Source of the DNA: an uncultured Gammaproteobacteria bacterium
GTDB taxonomy: Bacteria > Patescibacteriota > Microgenomatia > 2-02-FULL-39-11
Direction of reading: 5' to 3'
Length of the DNA stretch: 64,000 nucleotides
Assembly (NCBI GenBank): GCA_964354025.1
Contig: CAYGXQ010000001.1
Coordinates: forward strand, 70,567 to 134,566
In this document: piece by piece, positions 18,991-42,030 of the stretch
Numbering within the stretch: position 1 is the stretch's first letter
Layout of the letters: every line of letters begins with the position of its first letter
The notes under the pieces: model-generated
Databases searched by the model: none
What the model saw: only the letters and a program-made list of their open reading frames with translations
What the model was told of the DNA's origin: nothing
Translations under genes and position numbers: made by a program

Positions 18991-19060
18991 TGTCATTGCG
19001 AGCAAAGCGAAGCAATCCCATCCGAGATTGCCACGGCTACTTCGTAGCCTCGCAATGACA
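18991..19060. repeat. family-1 structured repeat with 12-bp perfect terminal inverted repeats
   Basis: tgtcattgcgag ... ctcgcaatgaca. The internal segment cgaagcgaagcaatcccatccgagattgc occurs inverted in the copy at 32483-32557. Confidence 0.7.
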
Positions 19061-20973: not shown

Positions 20974-21966
20974 ATGTTGTCTGTAGAATTAATAACATTG
21001 TTAATTATTGTAATTTTCTCCTTGCTTATTTTTACCTTTTCCTTGAAAAAATGGATTACGGATTTGGCTGAGAAGCAAAAACCATCCGAGGATTTGCTTA
21101 AAATCATCCAGATGCTTCAGTCAGGCAGTAAAGAAGACCGGAAAGTTTTACTTGAGAGTTTACAAAGCAACACCCAGGCACTCAATCAGCGGTTGGATAA
21201 CGCCGCTCGGGTAATCGGCCAAGTGCAGAAAAATATCGGCGAGATGAGCGAAATCGGCCGGGGGATGAAGGAATTGCAGGAATTTCTCAAAAGCCCGAAA
21301 CTGCGCGGCAATATCGGCGAGCAGATTCTCAAAGAACTGCTTGGTCAAATGCTGCCCAAACAGTCATTCCACTTGCAATATGCTTTCAAATCCGGAGCCA
21401 TTGTTGACGCGGCGATCAAAACGGGCAGCGGTCTCATTCCGGTCGACTCCAAATTCCCGATGGAGAATTTCCGAAAGCTTTTGTCTGCAAAAGAAGACGC
21501 GGAAAGAAAAACGGTTCTTAAAGATTTTGAAAAAGATGTCAAAAAGCACATTGAAGACATTTCTAAAAAATATATTCTGACAGAGGAAGGAACAATGGAC
21601 TACGCCCTGATGTACATCCCCAGCGAAGCTGTTTATTACGAAGTTGTCAATGACCCTGCGCTTTTTGAATACAGCAGCGCTAAAAGGGTCCTGCCGGTTT
21701 CACCGACGACTTTTTACGCATACCTCAAGGCGATCCTCATGTCATTTGAAGGGCAGAAAATTGAAGCCAAAGCGAAGCAAATTTTACAAACGATCAGGGC
21801 GACTCAAAAAGATTATGAGAAGCTAGCCGATAATCTAGCGGTTTTAGGCAAACACTTAACTAACGCCTATAACCAGATGAATAATGTCACTAACAGTTTT
21901 ACCCTATTGGGACAAAAGCTATCCTCGACAAAAACATTAGAATTGAAAGAGAAGAAAGAACTTTAA
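20974..21966 (+). CDS. rmuC: DNA recombination protein RmuC
   Basis: N-terminal TM, coiled coil, KLRGNIGEQILKELLGQ (compare RmuC LRGNWGEQVLE). Confidence 0.75.
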   Translation: MLSVELITLLIIVIFSLLIFTFSLKKWITDLAEKQKPSEDLLKIIQMLQSGSKEDRKVLLESLQSNTQALNQRLDNAARVIGQVQKNIGEMSEIGRGMKELQEFLKSPKLRGNIGEQILKELLGQMLPKQSFHLQYAFKSGAIVDAAIKTGSGLIPVDSKFPMENFRKLLSAKEDAERKTVLKDFEKDVKKHIEDISKKYILTEEGTMDYALMYIPSEAVYYEVVNDPALFEYSSAKRVLPVSPTTFYAYLKAILMSFEGQKIEAKAKQILQTIRATQKDYEKLADNLAVLGKHLTNAYNQMNNVTNSFTLLGQKLSSTKTLELKEKKEL

Positions 21967-21968
21967 TC

Positions 21969-22056
21969 TGTCATCCCGACCGATCCCGACTTAGTCGGGA
22001 GAGTGGAGGGATCTTCCCAGAGGCGGAAGATTCCTCGACTTCGCTCGGAATGACAG
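21969..22056. repeat. family-1 structured repeat (full-length copy)
   Basis: tgtcatcccgac ... ggagggatcttccc ... ggaagattcctcgacttcgctcggaatgacag. Ends are inverted repeats with nested hairpins. Confidence 0.7.
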
Positions 22057-22066
22057 AGTTAGAAAT

Positions 22067-25063
22067 ATGGATCAAAAGAAGTTAAATAAGGAACAGCTTG
22101 AGGCGATCCGTCACTGGAAAGGCCCGCTTCTGGTGATTGCCGGCGCGGGGACGGGTAAAACAACGGTTATAACCGAGCGGATCAAATGGCTGATTGCCGA
22201 AGGCCTGGCCAAACCAGCCGAAATTCTGGCTTTGACTTTTACCGATAAAGCGGCTCGGGAAATGGAAGAACGGGTTGACCGGGCGCTTCCTTACGGTTAT
22301 ACCCAAATGTGGATTACCACTTTTCATTCATTTGGGGAGCGGGTTTTACGGCAGGAAGCGATCCAGATAGGTTTGAATCCGGGATACCGGCTCATGGCTG
22401 AGGCGGAGAGTATCATTTTTTTCCGCAAAAACCTCTTTAAATTTAACCTGAATTATTTCCGGCCAATGGGAAATCCGAACAAGTTTATTTCCGGTATGCT
22501 GCAGCATTTTACCAGGTTTAAAGATGAAGACATATCACCTAAAGAATATTTTAATTGGGCGAAATTAAACAATGAAACAACCCGCCAGCCGGCGAGGCAG
22601 GTGAAACAATTGAACAATGAGGAAAAAACTATTGAGAGTGAAAAATATATGGAACTGTCTGATGCTTTTCAAAAGTATGAAGAACTGAAAGTCAAAGAAG
22701 GTTTGATGGATTTTTCCGACCTGATAACTAACACTCTAAATCTTTTCCGGTTAAGGAAAAATATTTTGAAAAATTATCAGGAGCAGTTTAAGTATGTCTT
22801 GATTGATGAATTCCAGGACACAAATTTTGCCCAAAATGAACTGGCGGTTCTTCTGGCCGGAAACAGAAAAAACATAACGGTCGTCGGGGACGATGATCAG
22901 GCGATTTACCGATGGCGCGGCGCGGCTGTTTCCAATATTATCCAATTCCGGCAAAAATTCCCGGAGGCAAAGCCGGTGGTTTTGACGAAAAATTACCGTT
23001 CCACCACTGAAATTCTTGACCGGTCATATGACCTTATCCAAAACAACAATCCAGACCGGTTGGAAGTAAAAGAGAAAATTAATAAAAAACTAGAAAGCCA
23101 AAGAGGGATAAAAGGAGAAAAAATAGAATTGATTTATGAAAAGAGAGTGGAAGATGAAGCGGAAAAAGTAGCTAAACAAATTACAAATTATAAATTACAA
23201 ATTACAAATGACGAAGGGAAAGAATTATACAGTTGGAAAGATTTTGCCATTTTGGTTCGGGCCAACAGTCAGGCAGAACCGTTTGCCAGGGCACTATCCC
23301 GGGCCGGTATCCCTCACCAGTTTTTAGGACCGGGCATGCTTTTTAGGCAGTCTGAAGTCAAAGACCTGATCGCTTACCTTAAATTACTCGACGACTTCAC
23401 TGATTCGGTGGCCTTTTTCCGGGTTGTCACAATGCCGGTTTTTGGGATAAACACCCGGGATATTTATGCCGTCAATAATTTTGCCAAAAGAGTCGGGCTT
23501 TCCTTATTTGAAGCAGTTGAGGTGGTGGTGGCGTTTTTCTTAGGCGATGAAGGACATTGGAGCCGGATGAAAAATTACCAGAATTACCTGCCGTATACAG
23601 GCGAAACTACCAAAGAAAAACTGACCAAGATAATGAAAATGATCAACCGGCATTTGGATTTGGCCAGAAAAGAAACCGCCGGTCAGGTTCTCTACTACTT
23701 TCTGGAAGACAGCGGCATTTTGAAAGAACTGGTTGAGTACAAGACGGTCAAAGAGGAAAAGACCGCCTTAAATATCTCGAAATTTTTCGACAAGCTGAAG
23801 ACTTTTGAGACGGAACACGAAGAAGCAAATGTAGCGGCGGTGGTTGATTGGATTGAAATGGCGATGGAACTGGGTGAAAGTCCCCTGGCGGCGGATACTG
23901 ACTGGTCACAAAATGACGCGGTAAATATCCTGACAGTCCATTCGGCTAAAGGATTGGAGTTTCCGGTGGTCTTTTTAGTCAATCTGGTTAACCAGCGTTT
24001 TCCGACAGTTGAGCGGCATGAACAAATTCCCATCCCTGATGAGCTGGTGAAGGAGATATTGCCGGAAGGGGATTATCATCTGGAGGAGGAAAGACGGCTG
24101 TTTTACGTAGGTATGACCAGGGCCCGCGACCGGCTGATTTTGACCGCGGCCAATTTCTACGGAGAGGGCAAAAGAGAAAGGAAGATCTCGCAGTTTGTGA
24201 TGGAAACGTTGGGAGAGAAGAACATCAATAATTTAACAATTCAACCCTTCGACTTCGCTCAGGGTAAGCAATTGACTCTTTTAGAATGGAAAAAAACTGA
24301 AGAATTACCGGCCAAAACTATTAAACAACCCATCGAATATCTTTCTTATTCCCAAATTGAGAGTTTCACGACCTGTCCGCTGCAGTATAAATACCGCTAT
24401 ATCATCAGAATTCCGGCCCCTCCTTCGGCCGCCGGCTCTTTCGGAACATCCATCCATCTGACTTTGCAGAAATTTTACGAGCGGGTTAAAAGAGGCGAGC
24501 GGCCGCAAAAAGAGGATTTATTGCAGATATTGGATGAGGTCTGGCTGCCGGTCGGTTACGGTTCGAAACAATATGAAGAGAAAATGAAGACCAGAGGCCG
24601 CGACATGCTTCAGGCTTTTTTTGAGAAATTTTACGATCCCGACAAAAAGCCAAAAAGCCTGGAGCAGATTTTTAAGATAAAGCTGACACCGACTCTTAAA
24701 ATCGGCGGCAAAATCGACCGGGTGGATGAGACGCCTGACGGAAAGTTGGAAATTATCGATTACAAAACCGGCAAACGTCCCACCGATAAGGCCATCGCCG
24801 AAAACCTGCAGATGACGGTTTACGCGCTGGCCGCCTGCGACTCCGGTATTTACAACAGACGGCCGGAAGAAGTGGTTCTTTCTTTTTATTTTTTTGACGC
24901 CCGGGAGAAAGTAACTTCGACTAGGACAAAAGAACAGTTGGAAGAAGCCAAGAAAAAACTCCTGGAAAAAGCCCAAGATATTGCATCAAGCGATTTCTCT
25001 CCAAAAGTGGGCAAATGGTGCGATTTTTGCGATTTCCGCCTCATCTGTGAAGCCTGGCAATAA
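22067..25063 (+). CDS. UvrD/PcrA-family helicase fused to a C-terminal PD-(D/E)xK (RecB/Cas4-type) nuclease domain with Cys cluster
   Basis: Walker A GAGTGKTT, DEFQDT, VTLTKNYRS, C-terminal YSQIESFTTCPLQYKYRY...IDYKTGK...CDFCDFRLICEAW. Two in-frame repeat insertions at 23175-23212 and 24243-24264. Confidence 0.85.
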   Translation: MDQKKLNKEQLEAIRHWKGPLLVIAGAGTGKTTVITERIKWLIAEGLAKPAEILALTFTDKAAREMEERVDRALPYGYTQMWITTFHSFGERVLRQEAIQIGLNPGYRLMAEAESIIFFRKNLFKFNLNYFRPMGNPNKFISGMLQHFTRFKDEDISPKEYFNWAKLNNETTRQPARQVKQLNNEEKTIESEKYMELSDAFQKYEELKVKEGLMDFSDLITNTLNLFRLRKNILKNYQEQFKYVLIDEFQDTNFAQNELAVLLAGNRKNITVVGDDDQAIYRWRGAAVSNIIQFRQKFPEAKPVVLTKNYRSTTEILDRSYDLIQNNNPDRLEVKEKINKKLESQRGIKGEKIELIYEKRVEDEAEKVAKQITNYKLQITNDEGKELYSWKDFAILVRANSQAEPFARALSRAGIPHQFLGPGMLFRQSEVKDLIAYLKLLDDFTDSVAFFRVVTMPVFGINTRDIYAVNNFAKRVGLSLFEAVEVVVAFFLGDEGHWSRMKNYQNYLPYTGETTKEKLTKIMKMINRHLDLARKETAGQVLYYFLEDSGILKELVEYKTVKEEKTALNISKFFDKLKTFETEHEEANVAAVVDWIEMAMELGESPLAADTDWSQNDAVNILTVHSAKGLEFPVVFLVNLVNQRFPTVERHEQIPIPDELVKEILPEGDYHLEEERRLFYVGMTRARDRLILTAANFYGEGKRERKISQFVMETLGEKNINNLTIQPFDFAQGKQLTLLEWKKTEELPAKTIKQPIEYLSYSQIESFTTCPLQYKYRYIIRIPAPPSAAGSFGTSIHLTLQKFYERVKRGERPQKEDLLQILDEVWLPVGYGSKQYEEKMKTRGRDMLQAFFEKFYDPDKKPKSLEQIFKIKLTPTLKIGGKIDRVDETPDGKLEIIDYKTGKRPTDKAIAENLQMTVYALAACDSGIYNRRPEEVVLSFYFFDAREKVTSTRTKEQLEEAKKKLLEKAQDIASSDFSPKVGKWCDFCDFRLICEAWQ

Positions 25064-25090: not shown

Positions 25091-26230
25091 ATGGTTCCAG
25101 ATCAGATCAAAAAATTTCCCAAACCGCTCATTATCCTGCTGGCAATAATATTCTTTTTCATTGTTTGGCTTATCGCGATAAACATAAAACCGGCCGGTAA
25201 TCAGCCGGCAATTACCTCACGAATTACACCCTCTGCGTTTTTGACGGCGGTCCCGACTAAAACAACCGCGGACAAATCGGAAATTGCCCAAAAAGCCATC
25301 AATTGGCTTAACCTGCAAAAATCCCCGGACGGAGTCTATTATTTGAACCGGATAGTTTTACCAAACCAGCCAACATTACCGCCGACGGAGGATAAGCGGA
25401 TCGGAATAAATGTACTCTGGGGGAAATATAAATATTGGCAAAAAACAAAAGACCCAAAGATACCGGCTGAATTGTCAGAAGAGTTAAATACTCTGTCAGA
25501 TGAAAAACTGACCCGTCTTTTCCAGCCTGATTTTTGGAGTTGCCGGTTTTTATACGAAATCTGGACGGATAAGGATATCGGGCAGGAGATGAAAGACCAA
25601 GCGGACAGTTTATGTTCAAGAGCAAGTTTTGCCATCCCGTCCGCCGGTGAGTTGTCAACCTATCAGGAGAAAGAGACAAATTTACCATCTGTATTTTCCC
25701 CAAGTATAGACAAAATCACTTTGTCTGCCAAAGAAGAGATTGATTTGGGAAAGAAGTCTTACCAATATCCCGCCTTTGCTTCGGATTTTGCCGCCAAATA
25801 CTTATGGCATGGTAGAGTTAACGACCTGCAGACCGCCAAAGCACTTTTTAATCTGACAGTGGAGATTTACCAAAAACAATTGCGATCCGGAGTGATCCGC
25901 AATGAGTGTGTTCTGGGTATGGCTTCGCTTGATTTATACCGGCAGACAAATGACATGAAATATCTTATCTTTGCCGGAGATATTTTCAAAAATGATATTT
26001 TGGCCGGAAAGAGAAGTCTTTTCAGAAAAATTGCCTGTTATCTTTTCGTCGAAGAATTAGATACCGTCAGTCCGGAGATGAAATATGCCAATTTCGAAAA
26101 TAAACTGCTGGAAAATATCCTGTCGGAAAATTATGACCCCGTTTCCGGCGCGTTTTTCAGCGATATCGAAGATATCCGGCTTTATGAAACAAGAGATAAC
26201 GCTCTGATGCTGAAAATTTTATCTGAATAA
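25091..26230 (+). CDS. TM-anchored extracytoplasmic protein, cassette component A1 (paralog of 27192-28511)
   Basis: N-terminal TM. Motifs shared with the paralog: WLNLQKSPDGVYY/WLNMQKDEKGLYS, YWQKTKD/YWKKTKD, FWSCRFLYEIWTDK/FWHCKLFYEIWNDK, ECVLGMASLD/ECLLGIASLD. Confidence 0.6.
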   Translation: MVPDQIKKFPKPLIILLAIIFFFIVWLIAINIKPAGNQPAITSRITPSAFLTAVPTKTTADKSEIAQKAINWLNLQKSPDGVYYLNRIVLPNQPTLPPTEDKRIGINVLWGKYKYWQKTKDPKIPAELSEELNTLSDEKLTRLFQPDFWSCRFLYEIWTDKDIGQEMKDQADSLCSRASFAIPSAGELSTYQEKETNLPSVFSPSIDKITLSAKEEIDLGKKSYQYPAFASDFAAKYLWHGRVNDLQTAKALFNLTVEIYQKQLRSGVIRNECVLGMASLDLYRQTNDMKYLIFAGDIFKNDILAGKRSLFRKIACYLFVEELDTVSPEMKYANFENKLLENILSENYDPVSGAFFSDIEDIRLYETRDNALMLKILSE

Positions 26231-26234
26231 TATT

Positions 26235-27125
26235 ATGAAAAGAAATAATCTTTTTTGGGCTGTCAGCCTGTCTGTTATCCTGATCTTTTCTTTTACCCCC
26301 AAGAATGTTTTTGCCGACAACAGAACGGAGTGTGAAAGCTCGTCAAGCGATCCCAGCTGCGGACCGTGTGATTACAGCGATTCATGGGACGGCAAAAATC
26401 CGAACGGTGAATGTCACGCCGGCTGTTGGGACAATTCCGTTCCTTATGAATATCCGGGTCCCAAAAGAATGTGTACTTTTGAATGTACCTACTGCAATAA
26501 CGGCAATACCTGCGCTTATCCAATATCCGGTACTCCGCCGGTTCCCACCTCAATGCCCGGTACGCCTGTCCCTACCGTGGGTCCCTGTACTTGCGAAAAA
26601 GTAGACGTGGAAGGGATAATCGGCGCCGGCCAGACGATCACCCTGACCACTTATGCCCGTTCGCTTGACCCGGCCAAAAACAAAATTAACAGTATGATTT
26701 ATCATGTTGAGCAAAACGGTCAGGAGATTACCCATTCTGAACCAATCAGCGCCATTGAAGTAACCGGAGAACCCGGCCGGTATTACACCAACTGGACTTA
26801 TACCATTCCCTCAGACGGTATCGGTACGGTTGATTACCGGATTTGGGTAGATATCTTATGCGCTTATAAAACCGCCGCCAGCCAGAGTCAGACTGCGGTC
26901 CTGGGAATAGGGACAACCATCAAAATCGGCATCTTTGATCCCCTGGTCGGATTAATTCAATCAATTTTCACTCCCAAAAACGGCCAACCCGCCCCTTCTC
27001 TTGACACTAATCCGGATTCCTACACCATCCTCAGGCCTACCAGAGTGAATACCCTGCAATTGGGGACGTTTTATCCAACCCTTAAAAAAGGCTGTCATGA
27101 AATCAGTTTTTCCATCCATTTCTGA
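26235..27125 (+). CDS. secreted Cys-rich protein, cassette component B1 (paralog of 28504-30858)
   Basis: Signal peptide; N-terminal domain of about 60 aa with 10 Cys; C-terminal domain SMIYHV...YTIPS...GTVDY shared with B2. Confidence 0.6.
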   Translation: MKRNNLFWAVSLSVILIFSFTPKNVFADNRTECESSSSDPSCGPCDYSDSWDGKNPNGECHAGCWDNSVPYEYPGPKRMCTFECTYCNNGNTCAYPISGTPPVPTSMPGTPVPTVGPCTCEKVDVEGIIGAGQTITLTTYARSLDPAKNKINSMIYHVEQNGQEITHSEPISAIEVTGEPGRYYTNWTYTIPSDGIGTVDYRIWVDILCAYKTAASQSQTAVLGIGTTIKIGIFDPLVGLIQSIFTPKNGQPAPSLDTNPDSYTILRPTRVNTLQLGTFYPTLKKGCHEISFSIHF

Positions 27126-27191
27126 TTCTTGACTAAAATATCGGGAAACGTTAACCTTATTTTAAGGTAAACTTTTATCGGCATTTTTCTT

Positions 27192-28511
27192 ATGGATAAA
27201 AAGAAGATTTTGATTACCGCAGTTATAGTATTAATGGCAATTATCGCCATCGTTGCTATTTTTCTCTCCAAAAAAAATCAGCCGGGACAACCAGTCAGCT
27301 GCAATCTGCAAAATTGTCCTTCCGGCTGCTGCGCGGATGACAAATGCCAGACCCAGGGATCAATTTTTGCCGGCTACTTATGTTTGGGTGCCAATAACTG
27401 GCAGACGCCTGGTCGGCAAGTGGTGACTGGTGCGCCAAAAGAAGTCGCGGCAGAAGTGAAAAAGAATGCCGAAACGGATAAAATCTCTCCCAATCCTGCT
27501 TCGCAAAGAATAGAAATGGCCAAAAAAACGCTTGACTGGTTAAATATGCAGAAAGATGAAAAGGGCTTGTATTCCCTTTACCAAATCGTCCGTGCGAACG
27601 GTGAAGTGGTACCTTATATTACCGACAGCCGGGAAGTGATTGACGTCGTCCTGGCAAGATATGCATACTGGAAAAAGACAAAAGACACAAAGACACTGGA
27701 TCTGTTAAAACAGGATCTGGATGTACTAGGTGATGAGAAAAAACTGCCGCAGTTGATGCCTGAATTTTGGCATTGCAAGCTATTTTACGAAATCTGGAAT
27801 GATAAGCTTATGCCTGGGGATTTGAAAGATAAAGCCAAAGCCAGTTGCGCAAGAAGTATGACCTCCGGTTATCCTGATGTGGACCTTAAATCGATTTTAT
27901 CGGATACAATAACGGTGACTCCTTTTCCGGAAAAATCAATTCAGGAACTTGAGTCAGCCTTAAATAAACCGGAGAAGAATATTACTTTATCACCGCAGGA
28001 GGAGGAAGAACTCCAGCAGAAATATCCGAAATATGCCGCTTACGTTTCCGATTTCCTTAATAAATACCAATGGGAAAAAAAGAACCAGGATCTGGAAGCG
28101 GCCAAAACGTTTTTCAGCTACGCTTTAGACGCCTACAAGAGAGCGGAAGAGGCGGCAGTAATACCGCAAAAAGAATGCCTGTTGGGGATTGCTTCGCTTG
28201 ATTTTTTCAAAACGACTGCCGATGACAAATACCGCTCGTTTGCGCAAAAATTATGGGAAAAAATCTCAATCTCACCAAAAGGATCGCTTTTCTCACAAGC
28301 TACCTGCGCTATTTTTACCAATGAGATAAATACAATCACCCCTGATAAAAAATACGGTGATTTCCTGAAAAACTTGACTGATGAGATTATAAAAAATAAC
28401 CATGAAATAAATTCCGGCGCTTTCTTTTATAAAAGCAATGGAAGTATTATCAAAGAGATCAGGGATAATTGTCTCTTGGTGAAGGTTTTATCGGATTCTG
28501 ATAGTGAGTAG
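27192..28511 (+). CDS. TM-anchored extracytoplasmic protein, cassette component A2, with extra Cys-rich N-terminal segment
   Basis: Paralogous to A1 (see motifs there) plus CNLQNCPSGCCADDKCQTQG near the membrane anchor. Confidence 0.6.
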   Translation: MDKKKILITAVIVLMAIIAIVAIFLSKKNQPGQPVSCNLQNCPSGCCADDKCQTQGSIFAGYLCLGANNWQTPGRQVVTGAPKEVAAEVKKNAETDKISPNPASQRIEMAKKTLDWLNMQKDEKGLYSLYQIVRANGEVVPYITDSREVIDVVLARYAYWKKTKDTKTLDLLKQDLDVLGDEKKLPQLMPEFWHCKLFYEIWNDKLMPGDLKDKAKASCARSMTSGYPDVDLKSILSDTITVTPFPEKSIQELESALNKPEKNITLSPQEEEELQQKYPKYAAYVSDFLNKYQWEKKNQDLEAAKTFFSYALDAYKRAEEAAVIPQKECLLGIASLDFFKTTADDKYRSFAQKLWEKISISPKGSLFSQATCAIFTNEINTITPDKKYGDFLKNLTDEIIKNNHEINSGAFFYKSNGSIIKEIRDNCLLVKVLSDSDSE

Positions 28512-30858
28512 TATGAAAAGATTTTTTTATACAATATTTCTTGCCATTATCCTTTTGGGGATTTTTTATTCCTTTAAAAATAGCGCATATGCTGTAGATT
28601 GTTCGATTCTCAGCTCAAATCCTGCTTGCGGTAAATGTGTTATAGATCCATGGTCTGGGAGTGGTGCTTGTATGAAACAGTGTAATCCTGGTGCGATTAC
28701 GTGTTCCGGTAAGGAAGATCTGAATTCCTGCTGGTGGAGATGTAATGCAGCTGAAGGGGGATGTGATAATCCCTACCAATGCTGTTATCCGCCGAGTCCC
28801 ACTCCGACTAATTCACCACCCTCCTGTAACAGCCTGACTGTCCAGCCGGTTACCGTGATGCCTGGAGAGTCGATTACCCTAAAAGCAAACGTCGGCGAAT
28901 TGAACGGCTCGGTTACGAAAGTGGATTTTTATTACGGATTAGTATCGGAAATAGACGGAGGGGCGGCGGTCAATCCTCCAGGCGGTAACTGGCATCCTTT
29001 AGGCAGTGTGTCATCCAGTCAACCGACAATCCCCTTTGCTCCTTTGGTCACGCCGAATGTTAAAACAGGTAAAAGTTGTGACCAGATTTGTCAGGGATAT
29101 CAGGGCAGGTCCTGTTTGTCAGTTGGTACTGATACCGGGGGAACAAACGGGAGCGTGACGAAATTTAATAGTACTGGGAGTGAAGACGGCAGTTGTGATT
29201 CACAAACGGGCGGATGGGCAAGAGAGAAATGCAATGTAGCGATGAATGCTCATGGACAAATGCCTTGCGACTGGACAAATTGCCGCTGTTCGGATTGGCC
29301 GACTTTAACTACATTTACGGATGTTTCTTGGACCGGAACTTTTCCGGGAACAGGAGGAGCCTATTATTTCATCGCCAATGTCTTTGACGCTCAGGGCCTG
29401 TTTTGTTCCGGCAATCCTAAAAAACCGGCTGACGTAAAAGGATGTTCAGCCTGTATGTTGCAAACAACCGTGGTGACGCCATCACCGACTCCCAGTGAGT
29501 CTCCGACGCCTTCAGCAACACCTACATCTACCCCTACTTCTACTCCTACCCCGACACCTCTTGGATGCGGCAATCCCTGCAGCCCGGACAATAACGAATG
29601 TCCCGAAGAATGTCCATTTTGTCCGGTAGATAATTCCTTTTGCGTCGGTCCAAGTTCCACGCCCACTCCCACCCAAGTTCCTTGTAACGGCCCCTGTACT
29701 AACAGCAATGAATGTGATATAAACTGTCCTCTTTGTTCAACTGATCATACCTGTAGGGTACCTTGTGGTGATCTGTGCACCAACAGCAACGAATGCGATC
29801 TGTCCTGTCCGATTTGTACGGCTGATAACAAATGTTTGGCAGCCAGTCCGACTCCCACTAAAGTCCCCTGTACCCAACCATGTACCAATAGCCTAGAATG
29901 CGATATCAACTGTCCTCTTTGTTCAACTGATCATACCTGTAGGGTACCTTGTGGTGATCTGTGCACCAACAGCAACGAATGCGATCTGTCCTGTCCGATT
30001 TGTACGGCTGATAACAAATGTTTGGCAGCCAGTCCGACACCGACAGCTACACCGATTCCTCCGACAGCTACACCGACAGCGACTGTCACTCCGACACCGG
30101 AGCCATACTGCCTTTGCGATAGTATGGAATATACAGGATCTCCGGTACCGGGTGGGACAATGAGTTTCACTACCTGGGGTAGGATACCGGATTATGCCCA
30201 CAATAATTCAGGCATCCAGAGTATGATTTATCGGGTTTGGAACGGAAGACCGGAATCGCAATCTGTGCCTCCGGATGCAGCCGGACCCGTCACTGTACCA
30301 GCCCAAGGTCCGGTAACCGTCGGTGCTGATTACCGGTATTCGACGACTTGGAATTGGCAAATTCCGAGTACCGTGCCGACTTCCGGTTATGTCGATTATT
30401 ATTTCAACGCGGAAATCAAGTGTGTCAGACCAAGATCGACAGCGGATAGCGGCAGTAATCTGGTTCAGGCAAACACGGCGGTGCTGGGTACAACCGAGGA
30501 AAAAAGTCCCGGCTTTTTTGCCTCCATTCTTCGTTTCTTCGGTTCTCTTTTAGGAATTTCTCCATCTGTGGTTACTCCTTCACCGCTAGTACCTACTCCT
30601 ACCTCCTCTGCCCGGCTTGTTCCGCTGGCCGCCGAAGCACTTTCGCCTACACCTACCCAGGTCATGCTTCCTCCTTCTCCCACAATGGGAATGGGAGGGT
30701 ATTGCGCCAGTACTGTTCTTGCACCATCAGGAGTCCATAGCGATCAACTAGGCACTTTTACTCCCAATTGCGCCTGTCCTACCCCAGCAATTATCAAAAC
30801 ATGTACCTGGACAGTCTTAAGAATATATTACGGTGATGATTGTGTGAAGACACCGTAA
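28504..30858 (+). CDS. large secreted Cys-rich modular surface protein, cassette component B2
   Basis: Signal peptide; N-terminal Cys-rich domain homologous to B1; Pro/Thr linkers; five CxxxxECxxxCPxC modules; C-terminal domain homologous to B1. Confidence 0.6.
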   Translation: MSSMKRFFYTIFLAIILLGIFYSFKNSAYAVDCSILSSNPACGKCVIDPWSGSGACMKQCNPGAITCSGKEDLNSCWWRCNAAEGGCDNPYQCCYPPSPTPTNSPPSCNSLTVQPVTVMPGESITLKANVGELNGSVTKVDFYYGLVSEIDGGAAVNPPGGNWHPLGSVSSSQPTIPFAPLVTPNVKTGKSCDQICQGYQGRSCLSVGTDTGGTNGSVTKFNSTGSEDGSCDSQTGGWAREKCNVAMNAHGQMPCDWTNCRCSDWPTLTTFTDVSWTGTFPGTGGAYYFIANVFDAQGLFCSGNPKKPADVKGCSACMLQTTVVTPSPTPSESPTPSATPTSTPTSTPTPTPLGCGNPCSPDNNECPEECPFCPVDNSFCVGPSSTPTPTQVPCNGPCTNSNECDINCPLCSTDHTCRVPCGDLCTNSNECDLSCPICTADNKCLAASPTPTKVPCTQPCTNSLECDINCPLCSTDHTCRVPCGDLCTNSNECDLSCPICTADNKCLAASPTPTATPIPPTATPTATVTPTPEPYCLCDSMEYTGSPVPGGTMSFTTWGRIPDYAHNNSGIQSMIYRVWNGRPESQSVPPDAAGPVTVPAQGPVTVGADYRYSTTWNWQIPSTVPTSGYVDYYFNAEIKCVRPRSTADSGSNLVQANTAVLGTTEEKSPGFFASILRFFGSLLGISPSVVTPSPLVPTPTSSARLVPLAAEALSPTPTQVMLPPSPTMGMGGYCASTVLAPSGVHSDQLGTFTPNCACPTPAIIKTCTWTVLRIYYGDDCVKTP
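29677..30048 (+). repeat. tandem direct duplication of a 186-bp unit (62 aa, two Cys modules) inside B2
   Basis: 29722-29852 is 100% identical to 29908-30038 (131 bp); the upstream parts of the units are about 80% identical. Confidence 0.85.
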
Positions 30859-30913
30859 ACTACATCCAGTTTATGGGATTTCTTATGGGGCTTTATGCGT
30901 GGATGTAGTAAAG

Positions 30914-31228
30914 TTATTTATCCCGGATTTTGAGAGAAGCGAAACTGGTGATTCCTCCAAGAGTCAAGATGCCGCTGATTCCCAAAAGCAATAATGAGTT
31001 TTCCATATTTCCGGATACCGGCGGTTGGGGAGTGGCTGTGGGGCGGGGAGTCGAAGTGGGTGGTGGAGTATTGGTTGGTGCCGTAACGGGTGTACTGGTG
31101 GGGGCACAAGTGATACCGGGAATGGTCGTATCGCAGATGGGGCCGAAGGTATCCTGGGCAAAGACACTCCTTTTGGGAAGCAAAATGACTAAGACAAGAA
31201 TAAAATAGGATAATAATCGGGAATTCAT
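30914..31228 (-). CDS. small secreted Pro/Thr-rich peptide with C-terminal TM and basic tail (cell-surface anchor-like)
   Basis: Signal peptide MNSRLLSYFILVLVILLPKRSVFAQD, CDTTIPGITC, PT-rich linker, LLLLGISGILTLGGITSFASL then KIRDK. Confidence 0.45.
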   Translation of the reverse strand: MNSRLLSYFILVLVILLPKRSVFAQDTFGPICDTTIPGITCAPTSTPVTAPTNTPPPTSTPRPTATPQPPVSGNMENSLLLLGISGILTLGGITSFASLKIRDK

Positions 31229-31301
31229 CCTAAATCCATTGTGATGGATTATTTTTTGGGTGTCAAGTGGAAAGTTTTATGTTAAGATAAAAATTATAGA
31301 T

Positions 31302-31757
31302 ATGAAAAAAAAGCTGATCATCTTAATCGGTCTTATTATTTTAATTTTTATAGCAAAAATGACCGGTTTTAACGGGAAATATTTTTTTAAGTCTTTAGAA
31401 TTTTTACAGGATAATAGAAGTTACTCCGATTCCGGTATTTCCGCTTCAGAACCGACAAAGGTAACAGAAATAAACATCACAAAATGGGCAATCTCGCCGG
31501 AGTCATTGGCCAAATGTCTGGCTGAACGGCGTTTTAAGATGTACGGGACTGATACCTGCAGTTCGTGTAAGATGCAGAAAGAATTTTTCGGCGACAGTTT
31601 TCAGCTGATAAATTATGTGAACTGCGAAACGGAAAAAACTTTGTGTGACGCCAAAGGTCTGCATGCTTTTCCCGTTTGGGAAGACGACACCGGTAAGCAA
31701 TATAAAGGAGCGATAGAATTATCAGTTTTGGCCAATTTAACCGGTTGCGACAAATAA
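31302..31757 (+). CDS. membrane-anchored thioredoxin-fold protein with CxxC (CSSC)
   Basis: N-terminal TM, YGTDTCSSCKMQKEFFG, conserved distal Cys; immediately upstream of the ccdA-like gene. Confidence 0.5.
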   Translation: MKKKLIILIGLIILIFIAKMTGFNGKYFFKSLEFLQDNRSYSDSGISASEPTKVTEINITKWAISPESLAKCLAERRFKMYGTDTCSSCKMQKEFFGDSFQLINYVNCETEKTLCDAKGLHAFPVWEDDTGKQYKGAIELSVLANLTGCDK

Positions 31758-31760
31758 ATT

Positions 31761-32582
31761 ATGATTACCTCCGGTAATTTAATCGGCGCTTTTTTGGCAG
31801 GATTGACGTCCTTTTTTGCCCCGTGTCTGCTGCCGCTTTTTCCCTCTTACTTTTCCGCCGTCTCCGGCTTTACTTTTGCCCAGTTGTACGGACTGGATTT
31901 CGGCAAAATCAGGTTACGGGTCTTTGTCTCCAGTCTTTTTTTCTCGGCCGGATTTGCGATCGTTTTCACGGCTTTGGGAGCCACCGGTTCCCTTGTCGGA
32001 CAACTTCTGGAGAAGTACCTGCCGTATCTTTTGAGGCTAAGCGGGATATTTTTGATACTATTGGGTCTTGTACAACTGGGAATAATCAAAATTCCCTCTT
32101 TTGAATTTGACTATGCTTGGAAAATGCAGAAAAAAATGGCCGGTCTCGGGTTCTTAACCTCTTTGGTAACCGGGATTGCCGCCGCGCTGTCTTGGATTCC
32201 CTGTATCGGGCCGCTTTTGTCTCCGATCCTTTTGCTTTCTGCAGAAAGCGAGACGGTGTTTTCCGGCAGTTTACTTTTATTTATTTTTTCCCTGGGACTG
32301 ACGGTACCGTTTTTGGCCGGCGGATTATTTTTCCCGGCCGTAGTCAATCTTCTTCAGGGTCATAGGCAGCTGTTTCACCGGATTTCACAGCTGGCGGGAA
32401 TATTTATTATCATCCTCGGGATATTATTACTCGCAGATAAATATCAGTTATTGATAAAATTATTTGAAGGGATAGTTTTATCTGTCATTGCGAGTCCCGA
32501 TGTCACATCGGGACGCGGCAATCTCGGATGGGATTGCTTCGCTTCGCTCACAATGACATATAAACATAAATTCATTATATAA
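31761..32582 (+). CDS. ccdA: CcdA/DsbD-family transmembrane thiol-disulfide electron transporter
   Basis: Paired Cys motifs FAPCLLPL and WIPCIGPLL in TM helices. The last ~30 codons (VIASPDVTSGRGNLGWDCFASLTMT...) are read through a family-1 repeat and are probably not native. Confidence 0.75.
   Translation: MITSGNLIGAFLAGLTSFFAPCLLPLFPSYFSAVSGFTFAQLYGLDFGKIRLRVFVSSLFFSAGFAIVFTALGATGSLVGQLLEKYLPYLLRLSGIFLILLGLVQLGIIKIPSFEFDYAWKMQKKMAGLGFLTSLVTGIAAALSWIPCIGPLLSPILLLSAESETVFSGSLLLFIFSLGLTVPFLAGGLFFPAVVNLLQGHRQLFHRISQLAGIFIIILGILLLADKYQLLIKLFEGIVLSVIASPDVTSGRGNLGWDCFASLTMTYKHKFII
32483..32557. repeat. family-1 structured repeat with near-perfect 12-bp TIRs
   Basis: tgtcattgcgag ... ctcacaatgaca. 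Central module is the reverse complement of the central module of the 18991 copy. Confidence 0.7.
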
Positions 32583-39144: not shown

Positions 39145-40222
39145 GAGAAAATTGATTAAATTCAAGCGAATTCTCCTACCCACTTTGATCGTGGGAGTTT
39201 TTTTTGTGGCGATAATCATTTTAGTGCGGTTTTTTGCCCCTTATTATAACTTCGCCAGAGAAAATAATTTATCGTTCTCTTTAATCCAAAGTCTGGTTTT
39301 TGATAAAAAACCAGATTTGAAAGAATACAAAGGCAGGACAAACGTAGTCCTTTTGGGAATTTCCGGCGGCAGCCATGAAGGCGGAGATCTGACCGATACG
39401 ATCATTTTTACCAGCACGGATTTTGCCAAAAAAGACGTCGTGGTTGTCTCCGTACCAAGAGATGTTTGGCTACCGTCTTTGAAAGACAGGATCAATTCCG
39501 CTTATCATTACGGTGAAGAAAAAAAGCCGGGAGGGGGTTTGATTTTGGCCAAAGCGGCTATTGAGGAAGTTCTGGGACAGCCGGTGCAATACGGTTTGAT
39601 GATAAATTTTTCCGGGTTTGAGAAAGTGATTGATTTGATTGGCGGAGTCGATATTGAGGTGGAGAAATCATTTACGGATAAACTTTATCCGGTTGAAGGG
39701 AAAGAAAACGATACTTGCGGTAGCGACAAAACATACGCCTGCCGTTACGAAACACTGGTTTTTGAAAAAGGGAGGCAACATATGGACGGTAAACTGGCTC
39801 TGAAGTATGTTCGCAGCCGCCACGCCGAAGGGGAAGAGGGGACGGATTTTGCCAGAGGCAGACGGCAGCAGCAGGTGATTTTGGCCGTGAAAAATAAAAT
39901 TATTACCCAAAAACTTTGGAAAGATTTTAACTTAATGAAAAAATTGTATGAGGTTTTTATGCAAAACGTGGCCACTGATTTGAACTGGTCGGAGAAGATC
40001 CTTTTAGGGAAATTTTTCCTGACTATGCCGGAAGGTGTTGTCCGTCAACTGGTTTTGGATACCGGCGATGAAAAACAAAAGAGAAAAGGCTTTCTGGTCA
40101 ATCCGCCGGCCTGGCAGTATAAAGACATGTGGGTGCTGACTCCCCGAAGCGGAGATTTCACTGAAATCCAAAAATATATTTCCTGTCAACTGGAATCCCC
40201 AAGTTGTGAGATAAAACCGTAA
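39128..40222 (+). CDS. LytR-CpsA-Psr (LCP) family cell-wall glycopolymer ligase
   Basis: N-terminal TM; TNVVLLGISGG...DLTDTIIF...VVSVPRDVWLP...YGLMINFSGF. Confidence 0.75.
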   Translation: MLHPFKRKLIKFKRILLPTLIVGVFFVAIIILVRFFAPYYNFARENNLSFSLIQSLVFDKKPDLKEYKGRTNVVLLGISGGSHEGGDLTDTIIFTSTDFAKKDVVVVSVPRDVWLPSLKDRINSAYHYGEEKKPGGGLILAKAAIEEVLGQPVQYGLMINFSGFEKVIDLIGGVDIEVEKSFTDKLYPVEGKENDTCGSDKTYACRYETLVFEKGRQHMDGKLALKYVRSRHAEGEEGTDFARGRRQQQVILAVKNKIITQKLWKDFNLMKKLYEVFMQNVATDLNWSEKILLGKFFLTMPEGVVRQLVLDTGDEKQKRKGFLVNPPAWQYKDMWVLTPRSGDFTEIQKYISCQLESPSCEIKP

Positions 40223-40235
40223 AAATATTGTTCCC

Positions 40236-40448
40236 TTATACGGTTATCATTCTTCTTTCGATCTTTTGAGGAAGAGTATGATATGCACGGTTAAGTATCT
40301 CCTTAGCGTCCATAATCTCGAGAGCGACCGGTTGGCGGAATTTATTGAAATGCACGATGATATTGTCCTTCTTTTCCGCGAAGGCAATGGGATCGTCAGA
40401 TAATTCCATCATAAGTATATCGACGTCTTTACTGTATTTTAATTTCAT
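40236..40448 (-). CDS. DUF2283-like small protein (orphan TA-associated component)
   Basis: MKLKYSKDVDILMMELSD...IVHFNKFRQPVALEIMDAKE matches the DUF2283 pattern (YDKEADALYIKLSD...IVGIEILNA). Confidence 0.5.
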   Translation of the reverse strand: MKLKYSKDVDILMMELSDDPIAFAEKKDNIIVHFNKFRQPVALEIMDAKEILNRAYHTLPQKIERRMITV

Positions 40449-40654
40449 ATCTTCCTTTTAGACAATTTATCAAAATATTGCTTTAAGTTCAATAGAAGGA
40501 TCTTTCGCTTCTTCAGATCGGAAAAAATATATGATTTTATTGCTTAATTGTTCTATTGTTAAATTGTAAATTTTTCGTCTTCCCTCAATCCGTAAATAAT
40601 ATTTAGTCTCGTTAGGTTGTCTTACGTCTGTGTAAGTTATATACTAATACTATT

Positions 40655-40978
40655 GTGAACGTAATTAACAGTGAAACAGATCAAATAATCGAAAGAATAA
40701 TTCAACACTGCCAACCGGAAAAAATTATTCTTTTTGGTTCAGTCGCCAGAAATGAGATTAAAGAGAACTCTGACATCGACCTTTTAATCATCAAGGAAAG
40801 TGATAAAAAGAGGCCGTTCAGAGTAAAAGAAATATTCAAAGCTTTAAGAGGCATGGTGAGAAATTATCCTTTAGATGCAATTGTATATACGCCTGAAGAA
40901 TTGGATAAACGTATTCTGATAGGAGATTACTTTATAAAAAGAATATTGAGTGAGGGAAAGACTGTCTATGGCGACTGA
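40655..40978 (+). CDS. minimal nucleotidyltransferase (MNT) antitoxin-type protein
   Basis: ILFGSVARNEIKENSDIDLLII (GS...DxD). Confidence 0.75.
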   Translation: MNVINSETDQIIERIIQHCQPEKIILFGSVARNEIKENSDIDLLIIKESDKKRPFRVKEIFKALRGMVRNYPLDAIVYTPEELDKRILIGDYFIKRILSEGKTVYGD

Positions 40979-41366
40979 CAAACAAGTTCTTGCCAAGGAG
41001 TGGTTTGATGCGGCGATAAGCGATTACCGGTATGCGGAAATAGGTCTTAAGGAAAATCAGATTTATCCCCAGATTGCCTTTCTGTCTCAACAGGTGGCGG
41101 AGAAACTTCTTAAAGGATTTCTGATACTTCATGACGTTGAACCTCCAAGAATTCATGAATTACCTAAGCTTCTGGATGAATGTGTGAAAATAGATTCTTC
41201 TCTTGATTCTCTTCGTGACGCTTGTGAGTCGTTAACAGGGTTTTATACGGAAACCCGTTATCCACCGGATATCACCGATTATACAAAAGAAGAAATAACG
41301 GAAGCTTTCAATATGGCAAAACTCATCAAAGAGGAAATCGAGTCCATCCAAAACAAACCTCAATAA
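40968..41366 (+). CDS. HEPN-domain protein (toxin partner of the MNT)
   Basis: 4-nt overlap with the MNT gene; conserved TRYPP (R-x4-6-H-like HEPN region) and helical pattern. Confidence 0.65.
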   Translation: MATDKQVLAKEWFDAAISDYRYAEIGLKENQIYPQIAFLSQQVAEKLLKGFLILHDVEPPRIHELPKLLDECVKIDSSLDSLRDACESLTGFYTETRYPPDITDYTKEEITEAFNMAKLIKEEIESIQNKPQ

Positions 41367-41519
41367 TCTTATTTTTTCGCCTCTTCAGACCGGAAATAAT
41401 TCATGAGTTCATGGTTCAATTGTTACATTGTTAAATTGCTAAATTGTTAATTATTCGTCTTCCCTCAATCCTTGAATAGTATTTTTCGAAGACAGATGGC
41501 CGATGGCGGATGACAGATT

Positions 41520-41625
41520 TTTCCGTCCTCTGTATTCTGTCTTCCGATTTCTGTCCTCCATTTTCTGCTTTCAGTCTTCCGTATTCTGTCTTCTGACTTC
41601 CGTCCTCCAACTTCCGTCTTCGATA
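41520..41625. repeat. pyrimidine-rich tandem decamer array (consensus about TTCYGTCYTCC); complement strand GGA-rich
   Basis: About 9-10 imperfect units read directly in the sequence: ttctgtcctcc / attttctgct / ttcagtcttcc / gtattctgtcttc / tgacttccgtcctcc / aacttccgtcttcg. Confidence 0.6.
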
Positions 41626-41711
41626 AGTTTCAGGACTGGGGGAAACCTAAGGAGGTTTGCGCATCAGCGCTAAAGATAGTCAGCGGGGTAGGCTGGTAGA
41701 AATACAACTAT

Positions 41712-41990
41712 TTAACTGAATTGAACACGAAGCGGTGTGTTTAAAACATCAGCCAGGCGTTTAAGAAATGATAAGGTAGGCATTGTTCTGGCGTTTTCCA
41801 CCCGGGAAATAACTGACTGTTTGGTTTTGAGTCGTTTGGCTAGTTCTTTCTGGGTAAAACCGCGTTTTACTCTTGCCATAATCAGAGCACGGGCAATCTC
41901 GTATTCCAGCCGGTTGTCTTCAACGGCTTTACGAATCTCAGGATTTTTTAAAAGTCTTTTTTTATGGGTTTCCCAATCAGTGATGTGCAT
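41712..41990 (-). CDS. higA: XRE-family HTH antitoxin (HigA-like)
   Basis: GFTQKELAKRLKTKQSVISRVEN; lies downstream of the toxin gene on the same strand. Confidence 0.7.
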   Translation of the reverse strand: MHITDWETHKKRLLKNPEIRKAVEDNRLEYEIARALIMARVKRGFTQKELAKRLKTKQSVISRVENARTMPTLSFLKRLADVLNTPLRVQFS

Positions 41991-42030
41991 ATAAAAGATA
42001 ATATCACAATTTTGCTATATTGTCCAGCGG

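What the first reader, a model, noticed from the sequence alone, without database searches (positions are those of the whole stretch)
29677..30048. 131-bp perfectly identical tandem repeat inside the B2 surface protein gene
Two 186-bp units (62 aa, two Cys modules each) are tandemly repeated; 29722-29852 equals 29908-30038 exactly. Such identity implies very recent duplication or ongoing gene conversion. It allows copy-number variation of the surface modules by slipped-strand recombination. It is also a place where a short-read assembly could have collapsed additional copies.
Basis: seen in the sequence. Interest (0 to 1): 0.6.

Follow-up and report, generated by a model that had tools for sequence, protein, structure and literature searches.

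The report
Homogenised tandem repeat in secreted protein
A secreted, cysteine-rich protein gene of an uncultured groundwater-type (CPR) bacterium carries two in-frame copies of a 62-amino-acid unit; the copies are old, but part of them was recently made identical by recombination, an ordinary way for surface-protein genes to change length.

Summary
Window 29722-29852 equals 29908-30038 exactly (131 nt), with a 186-nt (62-codon) period, inside a 781-aa signal-peptide protein gene (28513-30858).

The two units are not a fresh duplication. The 22 codons before the exact tract differ at 69% of synonymous sites, while the tract has 0 differences in 28 synonymous sites. That fits an old duplication plus recent homogenisation, most simply intragenic gene conversion.

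Each unit holds two 24-aa six-cysteine modules that model confidently as knottin-like mini-domains. The similarity to known knottins is weak.

Module number varies in the family from 0 to 6. The two closest orthologues of this gene have only one module. In a homologue, two near-identical assemblies differ by exactly one two-module unit (177 nt), and the junction lies inside a 90-nt exact tract. Reads are needed to decide, both there and for this gene.

The host is a Gottesmanbacteria-like CPR bacterium. The phenomenon is a known kind (intragenic minisatellite in a secreted protein). The protein family and its gene cluster are undescribed. Interest is modest.

The parts
28513..30858 (+). Gene 'B2': 781-aa secreted modular protein. 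In order it has a signal peptide, an N-terminal Cys-rich region, a PT linker, a beta-rich region, a PT linker, five six-Cys modules, a PT linker, and a C-terminal beta-sandwich domain.
   Evidence: The ORF is. It is identical to NCBI protein P0001. It has no Pfam or NCBIfam family. It contains 61 Cys, and P+T make up 23% of residues.
29566..29643 (+). Module M1 (CGNPCSPDNNECPEECPFCPVDNSFC). This is the only module type present in the closest orthologues.
   Evidence: Coordinates. P0002 and L090 carry a single M1-type module.
29677..29862 (+). Repeat unit 1 (62 codons): module M2 (29683-29754), module M3 (29764-29835) and linker LAASPTPTK.
29863..30048 (+). Repeat unit 2 (62 codons): module M4 (29869-29940), module M5 (29950-30021) and the start of the PT linker.
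29722..29852 (+). Exact tract, copy 1 (131 nt). It covers the 3' half of M2, all of M3 and part of the linker.
   Evidence: Exact identity shown. There are 0 of 28 synonymous sites changed.
29908..30038 (+). Exact tract, copy 2 (131 nt). It covers the 3' half of M4, all of M5 and part of the linker.
29656..29721 (+). Diverged 5' segment of unit 1 (linker end plus the first half of M2). Its counterpart is 29842-29907.
   Evidence: There are 20 differences in 66 nt, made up of 9 synonymous and 6 non-synonymous codon differences. pS is 0.69 and pN 0.19.
29842..29907 (+). Diverged 5' segment of unit 2 (linker plus the first half of M4).
30100..30855 (+). Family-defining C-terminal region. It has a beta-sandwich (30100-30429), a low-confidence linker with a short helix (30514-30543), and terminal strands (30787-30831).
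   Evidence: AF2 model: pLDDT >90 for residues 1-110 and ~92 for the terminal strands. Foldseek gives only generic Ig-like/E-set matches. 219 representative proteins share this region.
27192..28511 (+). Gene 'A2', a membrane-anchored protein of unknown function. It is the conserved upstream partner of B-type genes. Paralogue A1 lies at 25091-26230, with B1 at 26235-27125.
   Evidence: A1 and A2 are 33% identical. B1 and B2 share the C-terminal domain. A-like genes lie upstream of B-type genes in L002 and L088.
30914..31228 (-). Small convergent ORF (104 aa): signal peptide, Cys pair, PT-rich stretch, C-terminal hydrophobic segment and a basic tail. It is a conserved neighbour of B-type genes.
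   Evidence: Conserved in L002, L090, L086, L001, L003 and L085. The L085 counterpart has LPRTG followed by a hydrophobic stretch and KRSG.
31260..32582 (+). Thioredoxin-like protein (31260-31757) and a CcdA/DsbD-type membrane protein (31761-32582). This is probable disulfide-handling machinery next to the Cys-rich gene.
   Evidence: DsbD_TM at 3.8e-16. The Trx domain resembles the VKOR-fused thioredoxin domain 3kp8 at E 2e-6. The pair is syntenic in L086 and L002.

Best explanation
The feature is an in-frame tandem pair of a 186-nt (62-aa) unit inside a secreted, modular, cysteine-rich protein gene of a Gottesmanbacteria-like CPR bacterium. Each unit encodes two ~24-aa six-cysteine mini-domains, probably with three disulfides each and knottin-like, joined by a 3-residue link and followed by a short Pro/Thr linker.

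The two units are old paralogues. Their last 131 nt were recently made identical by non-reciprocal recombination between the units: intragenic gene conversion, or an equivalent sequence of unequal exchanges. The resulting 131-nt perfect direct repeat, separated by 55 nt, is a substrate for homologous recombination or replication slippage. Such events would remove or add whole 62-aa units without breaking the frame, giving 3, 5 or 7 modules. That would change the length of the module stalk between the N-terminal part and the C-terminal beta-sandwich domain.

Shown here:
- the repeat itself;
- the mosaic of identity;
- variation in module number among relatives;
- a one-unit difference between two assemblies of a homologue.

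Inferred: gene conversion as the mechanism, present-day instability of this gene, an extracellular location, and a disulfide-knot fold.
For: 1. Identity and frame.

2. Two histories within one unit. In 29656-29721 versus 29842-29907, pS is 0.69 (10.5 of 15.2 synonymous sites) and pN 0.19. In the tract, 0 of 28 synonymous sites differ. If the tract had the same divergence, the chance of no synonymous change would be about 0.31^28, roughly 6e-15 (my arithmetic). The X1/X2 divergence exceeds that between this gene and its closest orthologue L090 (pS 0.37), so the units predate that split or were acquired already diverged.

3. Module relationships. M3/M5 are 100% identical, M2/M4 83%, M2/M3 67%, and M1 versus the others 53-60%.

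4. Family behaviour.
- Among the 152 proteins examined (the best 150 of the 219 representatives, plus P0001 and P0003), 28 carry 1-6 modules and 124 carry none.
- Orthologues P0002 and L090 have a single module.
- P0003 (L001) has four modules in two 177-nt units that share a 90-nt exact tract with diverged flanks.
- L003, from another sample, is 99.8-100% identical in the flanks. It lacks exactly 177 nt, and the junction lies inside that tract.
- A diverged strain (L085) also has two modules.

5. Rarity of long exact tracts. Other multi-module genes have no exact repeat longer than 17 nt among their modules; P0023's 51-nt repeat is a 24-nt-period linker repeat. Homogenisation is therefore episodic.

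6. Module fold. AF2 of the unit gives pLDDT 88. The best PDB matches are cystine-knot peptides. The profile's best PDB sequence hit is the knottin evasin-3, E 0.019.

7. Secretion and disulfide context. The sequence shows a signal peptide, and Trx-like and CcdA genes lie downstream and are conserved in synteny.

8. Literature. [quoted passage not shown] CPR genomes encode large extracellular Cys-rich proteins with strain variation (PMC4736985).
Against: - The divergence estimate rests on only 22 codons.
- No reads are available, so exact identity could be inflated by assembler bubble-popping, and the true unit number could exceed two.
- No second genome of this population was found, so copy-number variation of this gene is not observed.
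- The one-unit difference in the homologue comes from short contigs (2.9 and 1.5 kb) and could be assembly collapse through the 90-nt tract.
- Gene conversion cannot be told apart from expansion followed by contraction through unequal crossing-over.
- With only two units, and orthologues that lack them entirely, the array may be evolutionarily labile without being 'actively' variable.
- The knottin assignment is statistically weak (Foldseek E > 1).
Confidence: 0.7

Rival explanations
1. A single, very recent tandem duplication of the 186-nt unit, with no later homogenisation.
For: There are two adjacent in-frame units and a long exact tract.
Against: A fresh duplication would make all 186 nt identical. 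Instead the first 66 nt carry 20 differences, with pS 0.69 next to 0/28 in the tract. dN/dS is well below 1, so there is no sign of rapid adaptive divergence confined to that segment.
Confidence: 0.04
2. Assembly artefact. Either the true copies differ slightly and were merged to one consensus, or the true number of units differs from two because a loop in the assembly graph was traversed once, or the join is chimeric.
For: The 131-nt exact repeat is longer than most assembly k-mers and close to short-read length. In the homologue, one assembly lacks exactly one unit, with the junction inside the exact tract, which is what graph collapse would produce. The closest relatives of B2 in public data sit on very short contigs (L090 1.5 kb, L002 3.9 kb).
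Against: - The gene lies on a 139-kb contig with an intact reading frame.
- Both junctions are unique sequence: the flanks differ at the first base on each side of the tract, so 150-nt reads or read pairs can bridge it.
- A false join would need a module end upstream of the second unit anyway.
- The same mosaic architecture is present in an independent lineage on a 52-kb contig.
Confidence: 0.15
3. The identical tract, or the whole pair of units, was imported by recombination from a third copy, either a paralogue elsewhere in the genome or a foreign allele, rather than by exchange between the two units.
For: - The closest orthologues lack the units altogether.
- M2-M5 resemble the modules and the 'PTPTKVP' linker of the distant homologue P0003 more than they resemble M1.
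- The 5' segments are more diverged than the orthologues are.
Against: No other copy of the tract exists in the 64-kb window. The paralogue B1 has no such modules. Import cannot by itself explain why two adjacent copies are identical to each other. P0003-type modules are only ~50% identical at the protein level.
Confidence: 0.1
4. A template/variable repeat pair of a diversity-generating retroelement, which are common in CPR genomes.
For: There are two ~130-nt near-identical repeats in a CPR surface-type protein gene.
Against: The repeats are exactly identical rather than differing at adenines. The neighbouring differences involve all base classes. Both copies lie in frame within one gene. No reverse-transcriptase-like ORF was seen: there is a single chance YxDD motif in an ORF with no Pfam match.
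Confidence: 0.01

Closest known systems
Intragenic minisatellites of cell-surface adhesins (yeast FLO1/FLO11; review PMC3899988, citing Verstrepen et al. 2005)
   Same: These are long (~100-200 nt), in-frame tandem units inside a secreted or wall protein gene. Unit number changes by recombination or slippage and alters the length of the exposed stalk. Purer repeats are less stable.
   Different: This gene has only two units, and only 131 of 186 nt are pure. The host is a bacterium. The units encode disulfide-rich mini-domains rather than Ser/Thr-rich glycosylated spacers. No phenotype or polymorphism has been shown for this gene.
Gram-positive surface proteins with long identical tandem repeats (e.g. 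group B Streptococcus alpha C / Rib family, staphylococcal and enterococcal repeat proteins). Recalled from my own knowledge, not checked here.
   Same: They carry nucleotide-identical repeats of ~200-250 nt that encode whole folded domains. The repeats are kept identical by concerted evolution, and in-frame deletions change protein size.
   Different: Those proteins have many units, LPXTG anchors and Ig-like/Rib repeat folds. Here there are two units of cystine-rich modules, no recognised anchor, and no sequence relationship (no Pfam hit).
Large extracellular cysteine-rich proteins of CPR bacteria (Peribacteria genomes, PMC4736985)
   Same: They come from the same kind of host (CPR). They are secreted and very Cys-rich, are proposed to act in attachment, and show strain variation. 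A disulfide-forming protein is encoded in those genomes.
   Different: Those proteins are much larger (about 1,655 aa on average) and have other weak similarities. No relationship to this family was tested or shown.
Inhibitor cystine knot (knottin) mini-proteins (nemertide alpha-1 6ena, omega-atracotoxin 1hp3, MCoTI-II 2po8, evasin-3 6i31)
   Same: Each has six Cys in ~24-30 residues with compatible spacing. The AF2 model of each module superposes on them (TM 0.6-0.8 normalised to target, rmsd ~1 A). The module profile's best PDB sequence hit is evasin-3.
   Different: Known knottins are mostly single eukaryotic toxins or inhibitors. Here the modules are strung in arrays of 1-6 inside large bacterial proteins. 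The matches are not statistically significant, and disulfide connectivity is unknown.

Membership tests
Intragenic tandem repeat (minisatellite) of a secreted/surface protein gene | Head-to-tail direct repeats within one ORF, with a unit length that is a multiple of three | tested here: met
   There are two adjacent 186-nt units (62 codons) in ORF 28513-30858.
Intragenic tandem repeat (minisatellite) of a secreted/surface protein gene | High nucleotide identity between units (concerted evolution) | tested here: met
   131 nt are 100% identical and the units are 90% identical overall. The identity is mosaic, with the 5' 66 nt about 70% identical.
Intragenic tandem repeat (minisatellite) of a secreted/surface protein gene | Unit number polymorphic among strains of the same population | tested here: inconclusive
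   No second sequence of this population was found. Orthologues L090 and P0002 have no units. In homologue P0003, assemblies differ by exactly one unit, but assembly collapse is not excluded.
Intragenic tandem repeat (minisatellite) of a secreted/surface protein gene | The product is extracellular or on the cell surface | tested here: inconclusive
   The N-terminal signal-peptide-like sequence (MKRFFYTIFLAIILLGIFYSFKNSAYA), PT linkers and 61 Cys are seen in the sequence. Disulfide genes lie adjacent. No anchor motif was identified and there is no experiment.
Inhibitor cystine knot (knottin) fold | Six cysteines with knottin-compatible spacing in about 30 residues | tested here: met
   The pattern is C-x3-C-x5-C-x3-C-x2-C-x5-C. 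The six Cys are invariant in module alignments.
Inhibitor cystine knot (knottin) fold | Significant structural similarity to solved knottins | tested here: inconclusive
Inhibitor cystine knot (knottin) fold | Disulfide connectivity I-IV, II-V, III-VI with the third bond threading the ring | not testable with these tools
This needs mass-spectrometric disulfide mapping or a solved structure.
Diversity-generating retroelement target (VR/TR pair) | Repeat copies differ at positions of template adenines, with a reverse transcriptase nearby | tested here: not met
   The copies are identical. The flanking differences involve all bases. No RT-like ORF was noticed in the window.

The most novel reading that the evidence does not exclude
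The repeat is one visible episode in an undescribed, CPR-restricted system. The system is a family of secreted proteins built from arrays of knottin-like six-cysteine modules on Pro/Thr linkers, ending in a conserved C-terminal beta-sandwich domain that may act as a surface-attachment or sorting domain. The genes sit in a conserved cluster with a membrane protein (A), a small sortase-type anchored protein, and a dedicated thioredoxin/CcdA pair. Recombination between modules tunes stalk length, and possibly binding specificity, of a host-attachment structure between strains.
Probability: 0.3. Interest if true: 0.55.

Novelty: new member of a known kind. Interest (0 to 1): 0.3.

Why it matters
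On its own the feature is a textbook case: a long, in-frame tandem repeat in a secreted protein gene, kept partly identical by recombination.

It is useful in three ways.
1. It flags a place where the deposited assembly may misstate unit number.
2. It dates the events.
3. It points to a protein family and gene cluster of CPR bacteria that have no family annotation. Module number in that family clearly changes between close relatives. CPR bacteria are thought to live attached to host cells, so secreted modular proteins that vary between strains are candidates for the attachment interface.

Tried and rejected
- Tandem Repeats Finder did not report the 186-nt period.
- Pfam and NCBIfam gave nothing for B2, B1, A1, A2 or the repeat unit.
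- tRNA and Rfam scans of the window were empty.
- The same tool with a di-module alignment and with the two units as query returned nothing, not even the source protein. It is blind to this composition, so those negatives carry no weight. The full-length search also missed the 83%-identical P0006, which the exhaustive profile search later found.
With B2 alone it found no relative in GTDB representative genomes, so the source genome is not a representative. The last genome scan was therefore spent on DnaK for taxonomy.
It was redone with natural substrings.
- The DGR idea was rejected: the copies are identical, there is no adenine bias and no reverse transcriptase.
- A simple recent duplication was rejected by the synonymous-site contrast.
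- Positive selection on the diverged segment was not supported (pN 0.19 versus pS 0.69).
- A2 has no detectable solved-structure relative.
- The C-terminal domain gives only generic Ig-like/E-set matches, so no specific function could be assigned.
Full report
**1. The observation**

Window 29722-29852 and 29908-30038 are identical over 131 nt. This is the longest run of identity at an offset of 186 nt. The repeat finder gives two adjacent 186-nt copies, 29657-29842 and 29843-30028, at 90% identity. That is the longest repeat of any kind in the 64-kb window. A 60-nt piece of the tract occurs only at these two places even with three mismatches allowed, against none in 100 shuffles.

The repeat lies in frame in ORF 28504(GTG)/28513(ATG)-30858 on the + strand. 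Its 781-aa product is identical to an NCBI protein from a 139-kb contig. The minus-strand ORFs overlapping the region (29391-29708 and 29923-30201) translate the PT/Cys-coding sequence backwards, and I treat them as spurious.

**2. Anatomy**

The product starts with a signal-peptide-like sequence (MKRFFYTIFLAIILLGIFYSFKNSAYA). It has 61 Cys, and P+T make up 23% of residues. After two N-terminal regions and a long Pro/Thr linker come five six-cysteine modules:
- M1, 29566-29643
- M2, 29683-29754
- M3, 29764-29835
- M4, 29869-29940
- M5, 29950-30021

The shared pattern is C-x3-C-x5-C-x3-CPxC-x5-C. M1 carries two extra residues. M2-M3 and M4-M5 are each joined by only three residues (RVP), and the pairs are separated by LAASPTPTKVP. 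A repeat unit is therefore a two-module block of 62 aa.

Nucleotide identities between modules:
- M3/M5: 100%
- M2/M4: 83%
- M2/M3: 67%
- M1 versus the rest: 53-60%

A further PT linker leads to a C-terminal region (30100-30855).

**3. Two histories inside one unit**

Codon by codon, the 22 codons before the tract (29656-29721 versus 29842-29907) show 9 synonymous and 6 non-synonymous codon differences. The next 43 codons show none, and the first difference after the tract is at 29853. By Nei-Gojobori counting:
- 5' segment: pS = 0.69 (10.5 of 15.2 sites) and pN = 0.19
- tract: 0 of 28 synonymous sites changed

If the tract were as old as the 5' segment, the chance of no synonymous change would be about 0.31^28, roughly 6e-15 (my arithmetic). 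A single very recent duplication of the 186-nt unit is therefore excluded. The units are old and the tract is young.

The simplest mechanism is non-reciprocal recombination between the two units, that is, intragenic gene conversion. The tract is at least 131 nt long, and its right end coincides with the end of homology. An expansion followed by a contraction through unequal exchange would give the same picture. The 20 differences in the 5' segment involve all base classes. With pN well below pS, there is no sign of targeted mutagenesis or positive selection.

**4. Relatives**

The host is CPR. The window's DnaK is 84%, 83%, 79% and 78% identical to DnaK of four Candidatus Gottesmanbacteria genome assemblies (MAGs), followed by other Microgenomates.

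The word-indexed protein search found only two relatives of B2. An exhaustive profile search with an alignment of B2, B1, P0002 and P0003 found 219 representative proteins. They share mainly the C-terminal region.

Among the 152 proteins examined (the best 150 of those representatives, plus P0001 and P0003), 28 carry the six-Cys module in 1-6 copies and 124 carry none. Examples: P0008 has six; P0007 and P0040 five; P0023 and P0030 four. P0023 also shows a two-module superunit.

The closest orthologues have one M1-type module between their PT linkers, with no M2-M5 units:
- P0002 has the same architecture and synteny.
- L090 is 80% identical in nucleotides over 30031-31211 and 83% in amino acids in the C-terminal region.

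pS between B2 and L090 is 0.37, lower than between the 5' segments of the two units. So either the units predate that split and were lost in the sister lineages, or they entered this lineage already diverged.

**5. A direct precedent in a homologue**

P0003 (L001, on a 52-kb JGI contig) has four modules in two 177-nt superunits. These share a 90-nt exact tract (L001 8496-8585 = 8673-8762) with sharply diverged flanks. This is the same mosaic as in B2, in an independent lineage.

L003, a 2.9-kb contig from another sample, matches L001 at 100% and 99.8% on the two sides. It lacks exactly 177 nt, and the junction falls inside the 90-nt tract. A diverged strain (L085) also has the two-module form.

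This is either true unit-number polymorphism by recombination within the identical tract, or collapse of the loop in an assembly graph. Without reads I cannot choose between them.

Other multi-module genes have no exact repeat longer than 17 nt among their modules. P0023's 51-nt repeat is a 24-nt-period linker repeat. Homogenisation is therefore episodic, not constant.

**6. What the modules and the rest of the protein look like**

AlphaFold2 on one 62-aa unit, with a 30-row alignment of natural module pairs, gave mean pLDDT 88. The best PDB matches by Foldseek are inhibitor cystine-knot peptides: nemertide alpha-1 (TM 0.81 normalised to target, rmsd 1.2 A), omega-atracotoxin, MCoTI-II and engineered cystine-knot peptides. 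E-values are 1.8-9. The module profile's best PDB sequence hit is the knottin evasin-3, E 0.019. Pfam has nothing. I call the modules knottin-like as a working model only.

The C-terminal 252 aa model as follows:
- a confident beta-sandwich (residues 1-110, pLDDT >90);
- a poorly predicted linker with a short amphipathic helix;
- two confident terminal strands.

Matches are generic Ig-like/E-set domains.

**7. Mechanistic reading**

*Shown:* a perfect 131-nt direct repeat with a 55-nt spacer, in frame.

*Established knowledge* (PMC3899988 for the general principle; bacterial examples from my own knowledge): such repeats undergo deletion and expansion by replication slippage, unequal exchange and gene conversion. 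Rates rise with repeat length and purity. Long in-frame repeats are enriched in surface proteins, where they change the length of the exposed part.

*Inferred for this gene:* loss of one unit gives a three-module protein, and gain gives seven modules. The rigid, disulfide-bonded module pairs on PT linkers would act as spacer or binding elements whose number sets the reach of the N-terminal part relative to the C-terminal domain.

The adjacent thioredoxin-like gene (C-terminal domain similar to the VKOR-fused Trx domain 3kp8, E 2e-6) and the CcdA/DsbD_TM gene are syntenic in other lineages. That fits an oxidatively folded extracellular product. CPR genomes are known to encode extracellular Cys-rich proteins with strain variation (PMC4736985) and to be enriched in MdbA-like oxidoreductases (bioRxiv 10.1101/335083).

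**8. Caveats and rivals**

- *Assembly artefact* (about 0.15). The tract is longer than usual k-mers, so the identity could be a merged consensus or the unit number could be understated. Against this, the flanks differ at the first base on each side of the tract, the contig is long and the frame is intact.
- *Import from a third donor* (about 0.1). No other copy exists in the window, but the rest of the genome is unseen.
- *Simple recent duplication* (about 0.04) and *DGR* (about 0.01). Both are contradicted by the data above.

**9. Verdict**

Copy-number lability is plausible and has a precedent in the family, but it is not shown for this gene.

The phenomenon is a new member of a known kind. 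The surrounding protein family and gene cluster are unannotated and may deserve separate study. Interest: 0.3.

Noticed in passing
window 25091-32582; also L002, L086, L088, L090: There is a conserved gene cluster: an A-type membrane protein, a B-type Cys-rich secreted protein, a small convergent anchored protein, a thioredoxin-like protein and CcdA/DsbD_TM. In the window the A-B pair is duplicated (A1/B1, A2/B2; A1 and A2 are 33% identical). None of A, B or the small protein has a Pfam family.
   Followed up: partly
window 30914-31228 (-); L085 977-1252 (-): This is a small ORF with a signal peptide, a Cys pair, a PT-rich stretch, a C-terminal hydrophobic segment and a basic tail. Its counterpart next to the P0003-type gene carries a clear LPRTG sortase signal. 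It may be a wall-anchored partner of the B proteins. The window's copy has no canonical LPXTG.
   Followed up: partly
window 30100-30855 and the C-termini of P0002-P0152: The C-terminal 'CxCDG ... LQLGTF ... C' region ends within 10 residues of the protein C-terminus in all 92 full-length matches. It is fused to unrelated N-terminal parts (RHS repeats, Hint/intein, TPR, CarboxypepD_reg). It behaves like a C-terminal sorting or attachment domain specific to this group.
   Followed up: partly
P0121 (228 aa, from the representative search): This is a short secreted protein made almost entirely of related six-Cys modules. Its signal peptide and composition look eukaryotic rather than CPR. The module type may therefore extend beyond CPR bacteria, or it may be convergent.
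   Followed up: no
window 18991-19035 and 32514-32558: A 45-nt inverted repeat pair (93% complementary) lies 13.5 kb apart. One copy forms the 3' end of the CcdA-like ORF, giving the peptide tail ...RGNLGWDCFASLTMT. It looks like a dispersed palindromic element of the kind that adds odd tails to ORFs.
   Followed up: no
window 40531-40604 and 41411-41484; 40222-42757 overall: A 74-nt direct repeat (81% identical) lies 880 nt apart, in a 2.5-kb stretch without ORFs of 150 aa or more. AT-rich 'AATTACAAATTA' motifs recur at 8698, 23179 and 52839. None of these was examined.
   Followed up: no
L088 3266-3390 (gene of P0023): A 24-nt-period repeat encoding (GTPPPGGS/T)n forms the linker just before the module array of another family member, with exact runs up to 51 nt. 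It is a second kind of length-variable element in this family.
   Followed up: no
window 20974-25063: An RmuC-family gene and a UvrD-type helicase fused to a PD-(D/E)XK nuclease (998 aa, AddA-like) lie immediately upstream of the A1/B1/A2/B2 block. No link to the repeat was established.
   Followed up: no
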